This document shows positions 22,242 through 35,303 of a stretch of 64,000 bases of DNA, piece after piece (within the stretch, counting starts at the first letter, position 1; every line of letters starts with the position of its first letter). The notes under the pieces are model-generated. The model did no database searches, was not told the origin of the DNA, and worked only from the letters and a program-made list of their open reading frames with translations. Source of the DNA: Escherichia phage 121Q. The translations under genes were made by a program, and so were the position numbers. Location of the stretch: the sequence record NC_025447.1; one strand, given 5' to 3'.

Positions 22242-22321
22242 TGTATCCTCCAAATGTAAATCGTTATTATATTTAGGACAAAAAAATGCCAGTACTTTAG
22301 TACTGGCATAGTTTTATAGTA
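22242..22321 (-). promoter_or_regulatory. intergenic cassette: terminator hairpin plus promoter-like and SD block
   Basis: GCCAGTACTTTAGTACTGGC hairpin with T-run, TAAATATAAT element, SD GGAGGA. Confidence 0.5.
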
Positions 22322-23431
22322 TTATTTCGGCATTGTAATTGCAGACCATGAGTTCGTGGTGATAGGACCTGGTACATACAAAAAAGAACCACAAGCATAA
22401 ATTTGATTATTACCATCAAATACTATACTAAAATGTGCACATGTGTATAATGATGATTTTTCTGGGTTGTAATTATCTAAAGTTAGTGTATTGGTGAATC
22501 TACTCAAACCACCTCCCGAACCATTTCTACCAAATTCACCAGTACTGTATATCTTTCCTTCGGTTGTTGCGTACATATTAACATATGAAGTCGAACTTGA
22601 TTTTGATATTTTATGTATCTTACTATCAATAGGAGTGGAGTTAAATGTAAATGGATATACTTGTGTGTTCGTTGTAATACCGTTACCAAGTTGACCAATA
22701 TATTGCCAACCTGCGTTGTATATATTGCTGGCTGAATAAGCAAGAGTACCAGTACTGTTACCACCAAATAGTTTAACACTTGTTAACCTGCTTACTAGTG
22801 TAGTATACTGTCCGGGACTTACGCCAAGTGAACCATACCCACTGCTCCCGCAACCGAGAAGTTCATTATTTGATGTTAATATTAATGTGTTATTCTGTGT
22901 ACCCAATATATCAAGGACTGTATTAGCTCCGGTATTAACAACTGAAACAAAAGTACTCTGAGCAGTGGAATACCCACCACCGAGTGAATAGTTACCATTC
23001 ATGCCTCTACCATAAACAATCGAACCACTAGCATCAACGTAGTGCATTGTATCTGCACCAATTGATATCATTTTAATATTAGATATATGTGGAAATGAAG
23101 AAGTAACATTTAAACCACCCAACGGAATCATAGTATTTCCTGTGCCTAATTGTGTGGTAACTCCATGCATTATGAATTCTTCACCCTTGAGATAAAGAAT
23201 ATTGTACGCACCAGCCCATGCATCAGTAACACCTTCTGAAATTAATATCCAAGTATTTCTTGTTGCTGTATTTTCAACGTTTAACTGCAAATACGTATTA
23301 ACCCCACAACCATAAAGTGAACCATCGCCATAGAGGACGTACAAATTATCAAGACCGCACAGTACTTTCTTTATCTTTGGTGCTTCAGGTGCAATATTTC
23401 CGTACTTAACCATTCTTGTGAAAGGTAACAT
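22322..23431 (-). CDS. RCC1-like repeat (beta-propeller) protein, paralog B
   Basis: leader MLPFTRMVKYGNIAP; repeated G-x-N-x2-GQLG-x-G-like motifs; SD AAGGAG only, no cassette upstream. Confidence 0.75.
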   Translation of the reverse strand: MLPFTRMVKYGNIAPEAPKIKKVLCGLDNLYVLYGDGSLYGCGVNTYLQLNVENTATRNTWILISEGVTDAWAGAYNILYLKGEEFIMHGVTTQLGTGNTMIPLGGLNVTSSFPHISNIKMISIGADTMHYVDASGSIVYGRGMNGNYSLGGGYSTAQSTFVSVVNTGANTVLDILGTQNNTLILTSNNELLGCGSSGYGSLGVSPGQYTTLVSRLTSVKLFGGNSTGTLAYSASNIYNAGWQYIGQLGNGITTNTQVYPFTFNSTPIDSKIHKISKSSSTSYVNMYATTEGKIYSTGEFGRNGSGGGLSRFTNTLTLDNYNPEKSSLYTCAHFSIVFDGNNQIYACGSFLYVPGPITTNSWSAITMPK

Positions 23432-23441
23432 AATTTTCTCC

Positions 23442-24621
23442 TTAAATTTGTGGCAATTGGTATTCAGTTAAAGTCCATGTACCAACAACTGTCCCTACTG
23501 GAGACATACCAGTGTAGTATAATTTCCCATTCACATATGCAAATAATGCATTGTCATTCGCAGCAACCAACGATGTTGACGGATCATAAACTACAGAATT
23601 TGGAAATTGTGCTTGGACGAAAATTGAAGCATTATTAGATGAATTGTTACCAAGCTGTCCATAATTATTATACCCTGTTCCAAAAATACGACTTCCATTT
23701 CTATATAATAATCCCCTAGGATTTTGTGAATATGTTTGTATAAATTCAAAATCGGAAACATTAGTTAATTGTAAATAAGTACTTTGTGGCGTTAAAGATA
23801 TCTTATTAGTATTAGATAGAACACCATTTCCTAATTGTCCGTGAATTTTGTGACCCTACACCATATAGCGGATAAGTATTATCTACATTAAGAACTATAC
23901 CCAACATATTGTTATATGAAATTATATCAACGGGGTACTGGCCTGTAGGAAAACTATACTTTGTCCAACTCGACAAAGTATCAGTAGCAGAACCAGTTAA
24001 CAATGTACCAGTACTAGTTTTACCACATCTCCATGCTGAATTATCATTTTTAATTATCCAAGTTGGACTATTGAAAAATGAACTAACCTTTTTAACATTA
24101 ATATTAACCTGTGTAAATGATGTAAGTGTAGATGAACTACTACCCAACTCATAGGTTGAATTATCACCTATTGCGTAAAGAACACTATCATTTGTTAGTA
24201 AAAACATATTACGAACATTTGGATATATCTCCTTGATATTATCCACATTAAAACCTGAAAAATAAGACGTACAATCAACAAATGTAGTACTTTGAACTGC
24301 ACTAGATGTACCAGTCCAAAGGTTCCAACCTGCATAATAAAATTTATTATCATTGGTCTGAACTAAGCTATATGAAGCATTCCTTGTGCACCAAAAATTT
24401 TTCACATTTTGCATTAAGCGAACCCATTTGGTCTGTGTCGTTGTATTTCCAAGACCGAATATACCAGCATTGTTACCGCCAATACCCCACAAATCACCGT
24501 TCTTATACAGAATCATCAATGTGTTGTTGGTAAAAGCCGATGGTGCTTGCATTTTAATTACACTAGATTCATATATAGGTGCTATATTCCCGTACTTAAC
24601 CATTCTTGCAAAAGGTAACAT
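23442..24621 (-). pseudogene. RCC1-like repeat paralog C, apparent frameshift
   Basis: leader MLPFARMVKYGNIAP; frame stops at 23812 but alternate frame continues (HGQLGNG...) to 23442; shift lies in an A4 run near 23846. Confidence 0.5.
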
Positions 24622-32889: not shown

Positions 32890-34032
32890 TTATTTCCACG
32901 GTAGAAGGGAATCGGGGACTCTGGTTGGAACTCTCACGGCTGGAACATTTCCAAGTTCAGCCAAACCACTCATATACAAATTGTTATTTTCATCAATTAT
33001 CATTGAATAGAAATTATCAATTACGAAGCCTGAAATTCGTCTTCCTTCTAATGCATCAAGAACCATTTCGGTGAAAGTTAATATATTTTCGGATGTTTGA
33101 TTAACACCACATGCACCATAGGTATTTCGACCACAAGTATATAACTTATTATTATTTTTAACAACACATCCATTCCCTTCGTTGTTGGATAAACCACCCA
33201 CCAACTCTATTTCACCTTGGAATGATAAATTGGGAATTAATGTACTCATTGGTACTGCTGATACTCTACCTACACCAGCTTGACCATATGCATTTGGTGA
33301 AGCAACCTTCACTGAACCATCATTAAGAAATATATATGAAGTACGGTATGTATTTACAGCTTGTATAGCATTGGTGATCGTATTGTCTTTTGTAAAACTT
33401 AATATATTTGATGTTGTTGTACTACCAGGAGCAACAGTATTTCCTGCATACCAATAGGAACCATCATCAAGAACTAACCCAGTACTGAGCAAAGAACAGC
33501 CATAACTTTTAACATTTTCTATAGTGCTGTATCTGAACGATGTGACATTAGCTGTTGACGCGTTACCAAATACACCACCCTCGCCAGCACCACAGTAGAA
33601 CCATTTTCCATTTTTCAAAAATACACGCAAATTCTGTCCAACAGCAATACCATCAATATCATCAGCACTGACACCAAAATCAGTGAAGTACTGGGTTACA
33701 TCAATCCAAACCCCATTTGTATTTGTTCCGATTTGTGGCATTACTATACTAGCACCTGTGAACCAAATAGTTCCATCATTCTTAATGGCAATGGAACCAA
33801 GAACACCACCCCAGTAACGTTCAATATTATTATTCACACGGGTCCATACGGTGGATGATTGTAATGAACCATTACCACCTTGTCCAAATGAAGATGAACC
33901 ATACCAGTACAAGTCACCATTAACATGCAAATAAAAACGAGTATTATAATTTGCTTGTAATCTATTTTTAAATAGAGGTTTTGGTTCTGGTGCTTCATTT
34001 CCGTACTTAACCATTCTTGCAAAAGGTAACAT
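32890..34032 (-). CDS. RCC1-like repeat (beta-propeller) protein, paralog K
   Basis: leader MLPFARMVKYGNEAP; close paralog of I. Confidence 0.75.
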   Translation of the reverse strand: MLPFARMVKYGNEAPEPKPLFKNRLQANYNTRFYLHVNGDLYWYGSSSFGQGGNGSLQSSTVWTRVNNNIERYWGGVLGSIAIKNDGTIWFTGASIVMPQIGTNTNGVWIDVTQYFTDFGVSADDIDGIAVGQNLRVFLKNGKWFYCGAGEGGVFGNASTANVTSFRYSTIENVKSYGCSLLSTGLVLDDGSYWYAGNTVAPGSTTTSNILSFTKDNTITNAIQAVNTYRTSYIFLNDGSVKVASPNAYGQAGVGRVSAVPMSTLIPNLSFQGEIELVGGLSNNEGNGCVVKNNNKLYTCGRNTYGACGVNQTSENILTFTEMVLDALEGRRISGFVIDNFYSMIIDENNNLYMSGLAELGNVPAVRVPTRVPDSLLPWK

Positions 34033-34106
34033 AATTCCCTCCTTTATTCATTATACTATATTTAATACAAAAAAGAAAAGCCAGTATCAAGTACTGGCAT
34101 ATCAAA
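34033..34106 (-). promoter_or_regulatory. intergenic cassette: terminator hairpin plus promoter-like and SD block
   Basis: GCCAGTACTTGATACTGGC hairpin, GTATTAAATATAGTATAATGAATAAAGGAGG. Confidence 0.55.
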
Positions 34107-35255
34107 TCACTGCAAAAATGACATATCGACTTCGGTATAATTAAGAACGTTCTGTCCAGCAATACCTCCCATTACTACAATTGAAGCCCCACAATAATAT
34201 AACTTCGAAGTGTCAGTAAGTATAAGTGAACCAGATGGGGTGCGTACCAAATTACACGAAGTATTAAACGAAGTATATGAAGGGGTATAAGAGTACTGAT
34301 TAATATTATTACCAACACCTAATTGACCAGACGAGTTGCTTCCAGATGCATAAAGTACTTCATCACCTTTAACTATATGTGACGCCATGTTACCAACACA
34401 AGTATATAAACTATAAACTCCTGAACTCAATAATGTTGGAGTTTTGTATTGTATATCTGTAGATGAAGAAGTACCACCTGTGCCAAATTCGTTCCCGTAT
34501 TGTGCACCGAACTGTTTACCACAAGCGTACAAATTATTATCCGATTTAATAAAAAATGTACTCTGATAACTGACATTACAATCTATAACATCCGAAGAAA
34601 TCATCGTCACCCCAGTAATAGAAGTTTGATTGCCTGTACCTAACTGATAGTAATAGTTAAAACCACAACCCCATAAAGTATTATCTTCTTTTAGGTATAT
34701 GTTACCAACTGCCTTTTTAACCGAAGTTATAGTATCTACCCTTTTGAATGTGTTAAAAGAATTAATGTTTGTACCATCACCAAATGATGATAGGTTAGAG
34801 TTATTGTTAGCTCCACAACAATACAATGTACCATCGTTTGTTATCAAATTTACCTTCATATCATTAAAACTACTCATGTATTTTATATCAGAAACATTAA
34901 TACCACCTGATGTTATCCATGTAGTACAGTCCGTCCACAAAGTTTTTCTATCAGTTACACCAGTGAATGCCTTCGTGTTGCCAGTGATAAAAACTTTTCC
35001 CGTACCTTTCTCTTCGTACAATTGACAATCACTACTGTTATCTTCCAATAGAACTCGTTTAACATTCTCCGCACAAAGAATAAATTTACTCGATGCTACA
35101 CCTGTTCCAGTACCCCAATTCGTCGCAGAAGATGCATACAACTTATCAGTATAAGTATCATGAAGATACATGGAATCACTGGAATATATTTTAAAACGTC
35201 CATCATCACCAGGGGCAATATTCCCGTACTTAACCATTCTTGCAAAAGGTAACAT
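34107..35255 (-). CDS. RCC1-like repeat (beta-propeller) protein, paralog L
   Basis: start at conserved MLPFARMVKYGNIAP; close paralog of F. Confidence 0.75.
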   Translation of the reverse strand: MLPFARMVKYGNIAPGDDGRFKIYSSDSMYLHDTYTDKLYASSATNWGTGTGVASSKFILCAENVKRVLLEDNSSDCQLYEEKGTGKVFITGNTKAFTGVTDRKTLWTDCTTWITSGGINVSDIKYMSSFNDMKVNLITNDGTLYCCGANNNSNLSSFGDGTNINSFNTFKRVDTITSVKKAVGNIYLKEDNTLWGCGFNYYYQLGTGNQTSITGVTMISSDVIDCNVSYQSTFFIKSDNNLYACGKQFGAQYGNEFGTGGTSSSTDIQYKTPTLLSSGVYSLYTCVGNMASHIVKGDEVLYASGSNSSGQLGVGNNINQYSYTPSYTSFNTSCNLVRTPSGSLILTDTSKLYYCGASIVVMGGIAGQNVLNYTEVDMSFLQ

Positions 35256-35303
35256 AATTCCCTCCTTATTCATTATATCATATTTACCCAATAAAGAAAA
35301 CCC

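What the first reader, a model, noticed from the sequence alone, without database searches (positions are those of the whole stretch)
22242..35291. Shared terminator/promoter-like/SD cassette and 12-15-aa leader (MLPFARMVKYGNIAP), conserved at nucleotide level
Ten of the twelve genes are preceded by the same block: hairpin GCCAGTA-n5-TACTGGC with T-run, then GTATTAAATATAGTATAATGAATAAGGAGG, then ATG. Eleven genes start with MLPF(A/G/T/V)RM(V/I/M)(K/N)YGN, and the commonest form continues IAP; paralog A is the outlier with MLPFGRIITSSKK. The first about 45 coding nucleotides (ATGTTACCTTTTGCAAGAATGGTTAAGTACGG...) are near-identical across copies, synonymous positions included, while the gene bodies diverge. 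That points either to gene conversion or recombination through the cassette, or to selection on an RNA or DNA element spanning the start codon, or on the leader peptide as a targeting or processing signal. The glycine-rich gene carries the same leader on a different body, so the leader behaves as a portable module.
Basis: seen in the sequence. Interest (0 to 1): 0.85.

Follow-up and report, generated by a model that had tools for sequence, protein, structure and literature searches.

The report
Shared address tag on jumbo-phage proteins
Twelve neighbouring genes of a giant E. coli phage all start with the same 12-amino-acid tag and sit behind the same terminator–promoter block; the tag probably attaches different binding proteins to the virus particle, and the repeated DNA block lets the phage shuffle these genes.

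Summary
The window is an exact piece of a 348.5-kb Asteriusvirus genome (121Q/phAPEC6/PBECO4 group).

**What is there**
- Twelve minus-strand genes (35255→21089): eleven RCC1-type β-propellers and one glycine-rich protein.
- A sharp-edged conserved block of about 115 nt: terminator hairpin, a 22-nt promoter-like box (identical in 9 copies), SD, ATG, and the first 36–45 coding nt. Identity is 0.8–1.0 inside the block and about 0.3 outside.

**Two separate causes**
1. The peptide M-[LI]-P-F-x-[RK]-Φ-Φ-x-[YF]-G-N is under protein-level selection.
   - It is the most conserved part of 61 propellers that are about 20% identical overall.
   - In IMG/VR it occurs only in 348–378-kb Rak2-like jumbo phages.
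   - It heads at least six unrelated bodies: RCC1, Kelch, several ConA/LamG lectins, and a glycine-rich fibre-like protein.
   - AlphaFold places it outside the fold.
   - Published mass spectrometry (phAPEC6, CBB) finds its carriers in virions.
   - I infer it is a virion docking tag.
2. The synonymous-site identity is specific to Asteriusvirus (0.85–0.88, against 0.56–0.61 in other genera). It arises from recombination through the block: all 14 homology-block ends inside the array fall at −100 to +54 of a start codon, gene order is permuted between genomes, and leader variants are uncoupled from bodies.

No RNA structure spans the start codon.

The parts
21089..35291 (-). Whole array: 12 MLPF-leader genes of an Asteriusvirus (121Q-type) jumbo phage, transcribed right to left
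34107..35255 (-). Gene 1 (382 aa, RCC1 propeller; body type B). Leader at 35255-35211. A variant promoter box TAAATATGATATAA lies at 35273-35286. There is no hairpin, because no same-strand gene lies upstream
32890..34032 (-). Gene 2 (380 aa, RCC1; type L). Upstream cassette: hairpin 34080-34098, box 34051-34064, SD
31706..32815 (-). Gene 3 (369 aa, RCC1; type E). Cassette: hairpin 32863-32881, box 32834-32847
30496..31635 (-). Gene 4 (379 aa, RCC1; type H). Cassette: hairpin 31681-31699, box 31653-31666
29234..30424 (-). Gene 5 (396 aa, RCC1; type A; leader variant MLPFARMMNYGN). Cassette: hairpin 30471-30489, box 30443-30456
28425..29162 (-). Gene 6 (245 aa, glycine-rich, PF21722-related). 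The AF2 model is closest to the cyanophage Pam3 fibre. Same leader (MLPFGRMVKYGN). Cassette: hairpin 29207-29227, box 29180-29193
27205..28353 (-). Gene 7 (382 aa, RCC1; type U, unique to this genome among six compared). Cassette: imperfect hairpin 28399-28417, box 28371-28384
25983..27134 (-). Gene 8 (383 aa, RCC1; type C; orthologue of the MS-detected phAPEC6 gp005). The AF2 model has pLDDT 89.8; the propeller starts at residue 22 and residues 1-10 have pLDDT 56. Cassette: hairpin 27177-27201, box 27152-27165
24731..25910 (-). Gene 9 (type I), split into 68 aa + 341 aa by one extra GGAT in a (GGAT)n run. It is an intact 391 aa in phAPEC6 gp006. Cassette: hairpin 25957-25976, box 25929-25942
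23812..24621 (-). Gene 10 (269 aa, truncated RCC1; type G). About 380 nt without an ORF follows it. Cassette: hairpin 24669-24687, box 24640-24653
22322..23431 (-). Gene 11 (369 aa, RCC1; type D). It has the leader and an SD but no hairpin or box. It stays next to gene 10 (G-D adjacent) in 121Q, phAPEC6 and SP27
21089..22241 (-). Gene 12, 'paralog A' (74 aa + 298 aa, frameshifted). The leader has diverged (MLPFGRIITSSKK). The hairpin is at 22286-22309 and the box is decayed. Only a 52-aa stub remains in phAPEC6 and SP27

Best explanation
The array is a hyperplastic locus of accessory virion proteins in a Rak2-like jumbo phage. It has two superimposed layers.

**Protein layer.** Every product has three parts:
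- a 12-residue N-terminal tag, M-[LI]-P-F-x-[RK]-Φ-Φ-x-[YF]-G-N;
- a short, often proline-rich linker;
- an interchangeable β-rich binding domain. Here that is an RCC1 propeller or a polyglycine fibre-like domain. In relatives it can also be a Kelch propeller or a ConA/LamG lectin.

I propose that the tag is a docking (virion-incorporation) peptide. It would plug any of these bodies into one common site on the particle, most likely on the outside, so that a mixed set of adhesin-like modules is displayed.

**DNA layer.** In Asteriusvirus each gene is a self-contained expression unit: intrinsic terminator hairpin, a -10-type promoter box TTAAATATAGTATAAT, a strong SD, and ATG. This roughly 115-bp block, including the first 36-45 coding nucleotides, is the substrate for homologous recombination. 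Recombination duplicates, deletes, permutes and swaps the gene bodies, and it homogenises the block itself (concerted evolution). That is why even synonymous sites are identical.

**Shown here:** the anatomy; sharp-edged conservation; peptide-level selection; portability; restriction to one phage lineage; the position of the tag outside the fold; recombination joints at the block.

**Taken from the literature:** the carriers are virion-associated.

**Inferred:** docking as the function of the tag; external location; promoter activity and timing.
For: Anatomy and statistics. Terminator hairpins are stable (z -3.4 to -6.1).

Peptide selection:
- In an alignment of 61 RCC1 paralogues about 20% identical, the invariant columns are M1, P3, F4 and one glycine; Y10 and G11 are nearly invariant.
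- Hallingskeid, Munch and a UViG keep 0.77-0.92 amino-acid identity in the tag, but only 0.56-0.61 codon identity. The expectation from codon usage is 0.45-0.48. Asteriusvirus genomes have 0.85-0.88.

Portability: 130 distinct leader proteins fall into at least 6 BLAST-unrelated families. Pfam identifies RCC1, Kelch and Laminin_G_3; PF21722 relatives account for the glycine-rich body.

Lineage restriction: a degenerate leader pattern hits only 8 IMG/VR contigs, all 348-378 kb. Homologous bodies in other phage lineages carry a different N-terminus.

Outside the fold:
- AF2 models have pLDDT 89.8 and 93.7, but residues 1-10 score 53-56. The first strand starts at residue 20-22 in both body types.
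- Matches of the RCC1 profile to PDB chains start no earlier than profile position 16.

Virion association:
- phAPEC6 gp003, 005, 006, 007, 009, 010, 549 and 551 (PMC7247149).
- CBB_536, 537, 548, 549, 551, 552 and 553, all of which carry the leader (PMC5259590).
- GAP32 gp1.

Adhesin-like bodies: lectin and propeller folds; the glycine-rich model matches the Pam3 tail fibre 7ypx_A (Foldseek E 6e-4, probability 0.98; Pam3 gp24 architecture from PMC9942802).

Recombination:
- 14 of 14 distinct homology-block ends inside the array lie at -100 to +54 of an ATG, a zone covering 13% of the locus (P = 4e-13).
- Gene orders differ: 121Q is B L E H A F U C I G D K, SP27 is E H B A F C I G D J P, and WPEC3 has 16 units.
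- Body types A, B, C and D carry different leader variants in different genomes.
- The pair G-D has no cassette between its members and is adjacent in 121Q, phAPEC6 and SP27.
Against: - No partner or docking site has been identified.
- No N-terminal peptide data exist, so cleavage cannot be excluded.
- The MS peptide counts are low (1-5 in phAPEC6).
- The phAPEC6 authors favoured an internal, DNA-condensing role, and 121Q and phAPEC6 do have an inner body (PMC5646251, PMC7247149).
- The Pam3 match has a low TM-score (0.31).
- The promoter box has no convincing -35 element (TTTCTT), and no transcript mapping exists.
- Codon identity in other genera (0.56-0.71) is still somewhat above expectation, so some nucleotide-level or codon-choice constraint near the start may add to recombination.
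- One further block end (window-locus offset 14122) lies inside decayed paralog A, not at a cassette.
Confidence: 0.6

Rival explanations
1. The leader is a capsid-targeting signal, like the T4 internal-protein CTS or the phiKZ inner-body propeptides. On this view the RCC1 and other proteins are packed inside the head (inner body or ejected proteins), and the tag binds the scaffold/core and may be cut off by the gp21-type prohead protease.
For: - A tandem paralogue array of low-abundance virion proteins with a common N-terminus matches the pattern of T4 IP genes and phiKZ inner-body paralogues (own knowledge).
- 121Q and phAPEC6 show an inner body in bubblegrams.
- phAPEC6 encodes a T4-type prohead core protease, and its authors proposed an internal role for the RCC1 proteins.
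Against: - The tag has no conserved (L/I)-x-E protease site. Position 9 is K, N, D, Q, T, S, L or E, and the residues after N12 vary.
- The bodies are lectin, propeller and fibre-adhesin folds typical of surface proteins.
- The same body families occur in about 150-kb Vequintavirinae, annotated as virion structural proteins.
Confidence: 0.2
2. The nucleotide-level identity reflects direct selection on a cis-acting element: a translation-initiation region, an mRNA structure, or a protein-binding DNA site that runs from the promoter across the start codon. Recombination would not be the cause.
For: - The 22-nt box is 100% identical in 9 copies.
- Codon identity in the tag is modestly above expectation even in other genera (0.56-0.71 against about 0.46).
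- The start region is weakly structured, as expected for efficient initiation.
Against: - No stable or conserved RNA fold spans the start (z -1.05 to +0.84).
- Other genera keep the peptide while synonymous sites drift, and many of their genes lack the cassette altogether.
- The model does not explain permuted gene order, block ends at the cassette, or leader/body uncoupling.
Confidence: 0.1
3. The leader serves another step before assembly. It could be recognised by a phage chaperone or modification enzyme, or act as a localisation or degradation signal in the infected cell. Virion association of the carriers would then be independent of it.
For: The tag is short, unstructured and N-terminal. 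No partner is known.
Against: - Every carrier for which virion mass spectrometry is reported here is found in virions, across unrelated folds; not every carrier was detected.
- The tag has no hydrophobic h-region or lipobox, so it is not a Sec or lipoprotein signal (sequence).
- Different lineages replace the tag on the same bodies with another lineage-specific peptide. That fits co-evolution with a structural partner.
Confidence: 0.07
4. The leader is simply an inherited part of the domain (for example a propeller 'velcro' strand), and the cassette identity is left over from very recent tandem duplication.
For: The genes are tandem paralogues.
Against: - The bodies are only about 20-25% identical, whereas the block is 0.8-1.0 identical.
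- The leader sits on non-propeller folds.
- It is outside the predicted fold.
Confidence: 0.03

Closest known systems
PeSL cassettes (promoter-early stem-loop) of T4-type phages (Arbiol et al. 2010, PMC2839356; Comeau et al. 2014, PMC4122927)
   Same: - A composite block of about 100 bp: stem-loop terminator, promoter, SD, directly before the ATG.
- Repeated in a hyperplastic region.
- Insertions, deletions and replacements between close relatives end in the block.
- Each gene is transcriptionally insulated.
   Different: - Here the repeat runs 36-45 nt into the coding sequence and encodes a functional peptide.
- It is confined to one array of related virion genes rather than scattered before unrelated ORFans.
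- The promoter has a perfect TATAAT plus a conserved TTAAATATAG extension but no sigma-70 -35 element.
- The stem is GCCAGTAC/GTACTGGC rather than G-run/C-run.
- Mini-circles were not tested.
N-terminal 'conserved/docking peptide' of secondary receptor-binding proteins in branched tailspike systems (K1-5/K1E/SP6 hepta- and undecapeptides; KP32, KP34, Menlow, ΦK64-1 groups; Latka et al. 2019, PMC6872550; PMC13352976)
   Same: A short (7-11+ residue), lineage-specific N-terminal peptide is shared by otherwise unrelated virion proteins. It lets different specificity modules attach to one site and be swapped by recombination.
   Different: - The carriers here are about 25-45 kDa propellers, lectins and a polyglycine domain, not trimeric β-helix depolymerases.
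- There are 10-18 carriers per genome.
- No T4gp10-like branching partner has been identified.
- Attachment is inferred, not shown.
Capsid-targeting sequence (CTS) of T4 internal proteins IPI/II/III and Alt (own knowledge; IP locus plasticity mentioned in PMC2839356)
   Same: An N-terminal tag of about 10 residues sits on unrelated bodies, in a plastic locus whose flanking conserved DNA promotes gene swapping.
   Different: - The T4 CTS ends in a gp21 cleavage site (…AE↓) and directs proteins inside the head.
- The MLPF tag has no conserved Glu or cleavage motif.
- Its bodies look like surface adhesins.
RCC1-like 'DNA condensation protein' arrays already reported in 121Q, PBECO4, phAPEC6 and GAP32 (PMC5259590, PMC7247149)
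   Same: These are the same genes. Their multiplicity and their detection in virions by MS are published.
   Different: In the 8-million-paper library searched, the published descriptions do not mention three things: the common N-terminal tag, its presence on Kelch, LamG or glycine-rich proteins, or the terminator-promoter-leader repeat.

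Membership tests
PeSL-type regulatory shuffling cassette | Composite stem-loop terminator + promoter + SD immediately upstream of the start codon | tested here: met
   Hairpin, T-run, TATAAT box and GGAGG lie within 75 nt of the ATG in 9 genes. 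Hairpin z-scores are -3.4 to -6.1.
PeSL-type regulatory shuffling cassette | Strong sigma-70-like early promoter with both -35 and -10 hexamers | tested here: not met
   The -10 element is a perfect TATAAT, but 17 nt upstream lies TTTCTT (2 of 6). The consensus scan did not call sigma-70-type promoters from the TATAAT box. Promoter activity and timing are untested.
PeSL-type regulatory shuffling cassette | Indels and replacements between close relatives end in the cassette | tested here: met
   14 of 14 distinct block ends inside the array lie at -100 to +54 of an ATG. Gene orders are permuted.
PeSL-type regulatory shuffling cassette | Many copies dispersed before unrelated ORFans in several hyperplastic regions | tested here: not met
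   All copies in the 64-kb window lie in the array. The number of matches per Asteriusvirus genome roughly equals the number of leader genes.
PeSL-type regulatory shuffling cassette | Formation of mini-circles by cassette-to-cassette recombination | not testable with these tools
   Needs inverse PCR or long reads from infected cells.
N-terminal docking peptide of virion-attached modular proteins | Short N-terminal peptide conserved among otherwise unrelated proteins of one phage lineage | tested here: met
   At least 6 unrelated body families carry it. M1, P3 and F4 are invariant. It is found only in Rak2-like jumbo phages in IMG/VR.
N-terminal docking peptide of virion-attached modular proteins | Carriers are components of the mature virion | tested here: met
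   This comes from published MS, matched here to leader genes: 8 phAPEC6 proteins and 7 CBB proteins.
N-terminal docking peptide of virion-attached modular proteins | Peptide lies outside the functional domain and is free to bind a partner | tested here: met
   In the AF2 models of two body types, residues 1-10 have pLDDT 53-56 and no secondary-structure contact. The first strand begins at residue 20-22.
N-terminal docking peptide of virion-attached modular proteins | A defined partner domain (for example T4gp10-like) binds the peptide | not tested
   No partner has been identified. This would need AF-multimer screening or cryo-EM.
T4-type capsid-targeting sequence | N-terminal tag ends in a prohead-protease site (L/I-x-E↓) | tested here: not met
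   No conserved Glu. Position 9 and the residues after N12 are variable.
T4-type capsid-targeting sequence | Carriers are located inside the head and ejected with the DNA | not testable with these tools
   Needs fractionation or protease protection of virions.
RCC1-like β-propeller | RCC1 repeats forming a propeller | tested here: met
   Pfam RCC1 and RCC1_2 score above their cut-offs. The profile matches the HERC2 RLD with E 3e-45. The AF2 model has pLDDT 89.8.
Sec/lipoprotein signal peptide | Positively charged n-region followed by a 7-15 residue hydrophobic core, with or without a lipobox | tested here: not met
   MLPFARMVKYGNIAPE has no hydrophobic core and no Cys (sequence).

The most novel reading that the evidence does not exclude
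Rak2-like jumbo phages may have a natural 'plug-and-play' display system. A 12-residue address tag would be sufficient to load any β-rich binding module (RCC1, Kelch, LamG lectin, polyglycine adhesin) onto a common site of the virion. In Asteriusvirus a terminator-promoter-tag DNA repeat acts as the shuffling joint, giving each phage isolate its own assortment of 10-18 surface modules. The same two small body families carry a different lineage-specific N-terminal peptide (M-x-E-M/L-L/M-x-x-G) in Vequintavirinae, PCH45-like and many uncultured phages. This suggests a general 'N-terminal zip-code' principle for accessory adhesins of large myoviruses. The carriers might relate to the unexplained hair-like decorations of 121Q, phAPEC6 and CBB.
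Probability: 0.4. Interest if true: 0.75.

Novelty: new variant of a known kind. Interest (0 to 1): 0.62.

Why it matters
- These genes are annotated as 'DNA condensation proteins'. The evidence here suggests they are instead modular, probably surface-displayed binding proteins sharing one address tag. That changes how the most expanded gene family of these therapeutic-candidate coliphages should be read.
- A 12-residue tag sufficient for virion incorporation would be a ready tool for decorating jumbo-phage particles with foreign domains.
- The tag gives a concrete handle for finding the docking site, and perhaps the proteins behind the 'hairy' morphology.
- The locus extends the PeSL idea. 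Here the recombination joint includes a coding leader, so each swap keeps regulation and assembly competence together.

Tried and rejected
- **Leader-only database search.** I replaced it with a degenerate DNA pattern scan of IMG/VR.
- **PDB sequence searches for the non-RCC1 bodies.** The BF 221-aa protein, the glycine-rich protein, CR3 gp255 and P0035 gave no hits, so no solved virion shows the attachment.
- **Literature.** The φTE cryo-EM paper says nothing about these proteins. Text searches for the motif strings and for RCC1 with jumbo phage found no description of the tag or cassette.
- **RNA element across the start.** Rejected on folding z-scores and on synonymous drift in other genera.
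- **Propeller 'velcro' strand.** Rejected, because the tag is outside the fold and occurs on non-propeller bodies.
- **Canonical sigma-70 promoter.** Not supported, because the -35 is poor.
- **General late-promoter consensus.** The extended box is not seen elsewhere in the window. Only a loose resemblance to the ATAAATA late motif proposed for CBB and GAP32 remains.
- **Docking partner.** Not searched for. With one structure job left and about 60 candidate virion proteins, a single fused-chain prediction would not have been informative.
- **Technical note.** They were in fact stored as multi-record files.

Full report
**Source and context**

The window matches IMG/VR contig UViG_2706795820_000001 (348,532 bp) exactly. 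It is 85-98% identical in pieces to the Asteriusvirus coliphages SP27, phAPEC6 and PBECO4. These are Rak2-like jumbo myoviruses.

The region 21089-35291 holds twelve minus-strand genes. Eleven are RCC1-type β-propellers: Pfam RCC1 and RCC1_2 score above their cut-offs, and a family profile matches the HERC2 RCC1-like domain with E 3e-45. One is a 245-aa glycine-rich protein. The array is bounded on both sides by plus-strand arrays of small paralogues.

**Check of the observation**

All twelve genes start with MLPF. The 32-nt leader DNA occurs 10 times at 3 or fewer mismatches and the 30-nt promoter/SD block 7 times; neither is expected by chance.

The repeated unit runs in this order:
- the stop codon of the upstream gene;
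- the hairpin GCCAGTA(C)-loop-(G)TACTGGC with a T-run;
- GTATTAAATATAGTATAAT;
- GAATAAAGGAGG;
- 5-7 nt;
- ATG TTA CCT TTT GCA AGA ATG GTT AAG TAC GGG AAT.

Ten genes have the hairpin. Nine have the exact 14-nt box, and gene 35255 has a variant of it. Nine have both.

The exceptions make sense:
- The first gene of the array (35255) has a promoter box but no hairpin, because nothing on its strand lies upstream.
- Gene 23431 has neither element. It always travels with its upstream neighbour.
- Paralog A has a decayed box and is frameshifted.

Mean pairwise identity along the block:

| Segment | Identity |
|---|---|
| Upstream gene 3' end | 0.40 |
| Hairpin | 0.80 |
| 22-nt box | 1.00 |
| SD region | 0.85 |
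| +1..+36 | 0.86-0.98 |
| +37..+45 | 0.62 |
| Beyond +46 | about 0.30 |

At sites where two paralogues have the same amino acid, the codon is identical in 77% of cases in the leader and 46% in the bodies. Over codons 1-12 the figure is 88%, against 45% expected from body codon usage. The observation therefore stands, with a small correction of the counts.

**Layer 1: the peptide**

The tag is not peculiar to this genome or to RCC1 proteins. In Serratia phage BF, Erwinia phages pEa_SNUABM_12 and Hallingskeid, Salmonella phage Munch, CBB, GAP32 and four uncultured contigs, genes in the corresponding clusters start with M[LI]PF[ATSP][RK][MIL]Φx[YF]GN or with a variant, MLPFPIISN.

A degenerate DNA pattern for the tag hit only eight IMG/VR contigs, all 348-378 kb. 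After removing duplicates, 130 leader proteins fall into at least six families that BLAST cannot connect:
- RCC1 (96 proteins);
- Kelch;
- three or more ConA/Laminin_G_3 lectin-type families of 215-260 aa;
- the glycine-rich family (Pfam results; PF21722 relatives).

In an alignment of 61 RCC1 paralogues that are about 20% identical, the invariant columns are M1, P3, F4 and a single glycine; Y10 and G11 are nearly invariant. AlphaFold models of an RCC1 paralogue (pLDDT 89.8) and of the glycine-rich protein (pLDDT 93.7) both leave residues 1-10 at pLDDT 53-56. Both start the first β-strand at residue 20-22. So the tag is a free N-terminal extension, followed by a short and often proline-rich linker.

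Outside Asteriusvirus the tag keeps 0.77-0.92 amino-acid identity within a genome. Codon identity at conserved residues is only 0.56-0.61, against an expectation of 0.45-0.48. The peptide, not the nucleotide sequence, is what selection preserves across genera.

The same body families occur in other phage lineages with a different short N-terminus, M-x-E-(M/L)-(L/M)-x-x-G. Examples are CR3 gp255, PVP-SE1 gp19, PCH45 and many metagenomic homologues. That is what one expects if the N-terminal peptide co-evolves with a lineage-specific partner.

**What the carriers are**

Published mass spectrometry places them in virions:
- Eight RCC1 paralogues of phAPEC6, which are orthologues of genes in this window (PMC7247149).
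- Seven CBB proteins, CBB_536, 537, 548, 549, 551, 552 and 553. I show here that all of them carry the tag, on LamG-type, Kelch and other bodies (PMC5259590).
- GAP32 gp1.

Lectin and propeller folds are typical binding modules. The glycine-rich model is closest to the tail fibre gp24 of cyanophage Pam3 (7ypx_A; Foldseek E 6e-4, probability 0.98, but TM-score only 0.31). According to its authors, that fibre resembles the S16 gp38 adhesin and is attached to the baseplate through its N-terminal part (PMC9942802).

My preferred reading is that the tag is a docking peptide. It would load interchangeable binding modules onto a common site of the particle, probably on its surface. This step is inferred: no partner is known and no N-terminal peptide data exist.

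**Layer 2: the DNA block**

The bodies are old (about 20-25% identity), yet the block is nearly identical, synonymous sites included. That holds only in Asteriusvirus genomes, where codon identity is 0.85-0.88 in 121Q, WPEC3 and fEgEco12.

Three results from comparing the locus with phAPEC6, SP27 and WPEC3 point to recombination through the block:
1. Long stretches of 92-99% identity begin 10-100 nt upstream of a start codon and end 20-54 nt after a start codon further down. All 14 distinct ends inside the array fall in that zone, which covers 13% of the locus (binomial P = 4e-13). One further end lies inside the decayed paralog A.
2. With bodies clustered at 85% or more nucleotide identity, the gene orders are as follows:
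   - 121Q: B L E H A F U C I G D K
   - phAPEC6: g L E h i A F C I G D J P
   - SP27: E H B A F C I G D J P
   - PBECO4: M E H B A N C O V K
   - fEgEco12: B Q d R e S T f A F D b c
   - WPEC3: B Q R a M S J N T A O C W X Y Z
   
   Units are gained, lost and moved. For example, B is first in three genomes and lies between H and A in two.
3. The same body carries different leader variants in different genomes. Type A has MLPFARMMNYGN or MLPFVRMFDYGN, and types B, C and D behave likewise. Crossovers therefore separate leader from body. The pair G-D, which has no cassette between its members, is adjacent in 121Q, phAPEC6 and SP27.

The hairpins are stable (z -3.4 to -6.1) and are followed by T-runs, so each gene is insulated. 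The mRNA around the start is not unusually structured (z -1.05 to +0.84).

Together this fits a PeSL-like shuffling cassette (PMC2839356, PMC4122927), with one new feature: the homology runs into the coding leader. Every exchange therefore preserves regulation, translation start and the assembly tag together.

Salmonella phage Munch has the same hairpin and TTAAATATAGTATAAT box before some of its leader genes. CBB and BF pack their leader genes without it. The cassette is therefore older than Asteriusvirus but not obligatory for the tag.

**Promoter**

The box contains a perfect TATAAT 17 nt before the ATG and a conserved upstream TTAAATATAG, but no acceptable -35 element. It resembles only loosely the ATAAATA late motif proposed for CBB and GAP32. 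Promoter activity and timing remain untested.

**Rivals**

1. *Internal capsid-targeting signal of the T4 CTS or phiKZ inner-body kind.* This is the serious alternative. 121Q and phAPEC6 have an inner body, and the phAPEC6 authors suggested an internal role. Against it: there is no conserved protease site, and the bodies look like adhesins.
2. *Direct selection on a cis element.* This may contribute, given the identical 22-nt box and the slight excess of codon identity elsewhere. It cannot explain the rearrangements.
3. *A pre-assembly role for the tag.* Recognition by a chaperone or modification enzyme cannot be excluded.
4. *An inherited fold element or recent duplication.* This is contradicted.

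**Novelty**

The RCC1 arrays and their detection in virions are published. I found no description, in the searchable literature, of the shared tag, of its presence on unrelated bodies across genera, or of the terminator-promoter-leader repeat as a recombination joint. I class the finding as a new variant of known kinds: the PeSL cassette combined with an N-terminal docking peptide. It is of moderate to high interest, mainly because it re-reads a misannotated, highly expanded gene family and offers a testable virion-addressing tag.

Noticed in passing
window 35358-39194 (+ strand): A tandem array of about 20 small paralogues (60-80 aa, C-termini …LLLIYKY or …LIYRY), transcribed divergently from the MLPF array. 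[quoted passage not shown]
   Followed up: no
window 19606-20404 (+ strand); SP27 locus L006 5889-7932: A second flank holds small hydrophobic or 110-140-aa paralogues. The MLPF array therefore sits between two other paralogue arrays. GC skew changes sign at about 20 kb and about 40 kb.
   Followed up: no
window about 25729-25732 (gene 25910..24731, gene offset 178-182): The gene is split (68 + 341 aa) by one extra GGAT in ATGGATGGATGGAT. Otherwise it differs by 1 nt from the intact phAPEC6 gp006. This could be slipped-strand variation, a fresh pseudogene or a sequencing error.
   Followed up: partly
window 21089-22309: Paralog A is frameshifted near '…EDLWV', has a diverged leader (MLPFGRIITSSKK) and a decayed promoter box. 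Its leader resembles the MLPFPIISN variant that dominates in Serratia phage BF. In phAPEC6 and SP27 only a 52-aa stub remains.
   Followed up: partly
window 23432-24621: Gene 24621 is a conserved 269-aa truncated propeller. About 380 nt with no ORF and no cassette follow it. The identical phAPEC6 gp007 was nevertheless detected in virions (3 peptides, 17.5% coverage).
   Followed up: partly
L027 3968-4618; L026 3962-4624; L029 459-1109 and 8001-8693; proteins P0005-P0035, P0061: In Vequintavirinae (CR3-like, PVP-SE1), PCH45 and many uncultured phages, homologues of the glycine-rich and the roughly 220-aa LamG-like bodies start with a different shared peptide, M-x-E-(M/L)-(L/M)-x-x-G. Examples are MLEMLTVGK, MNEMLMLGQ and MLESMLAGK. 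This may be a second lineage-specific address tag.
   Followed up: partly
L007 (WPEC3) and L009 (fEgEco12): These genomes hold two leader subtypes side by side, MLPFARMVKYGN and MLPFVR(M/L)FDYGN. In WPEC3 the first is mostly preceded by the full hairpin + box cassette and the second often by a reduced one; in fEgEco12 the association is weaker. This suggests two partly separate homogenisation groups.
   Followed up: partly
literature: 121Q, phAPEC6, CBB: The three phages of this group reported as 'hairy' (fibres on the sheath, and in 121Q/phAPEC6 also on the capsid) each encode 10 or more MLPF-tag proteins. GAP32, which is not reported as hairy, encodes 2-3. The sample is too small to mean much.
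   Followed up: no
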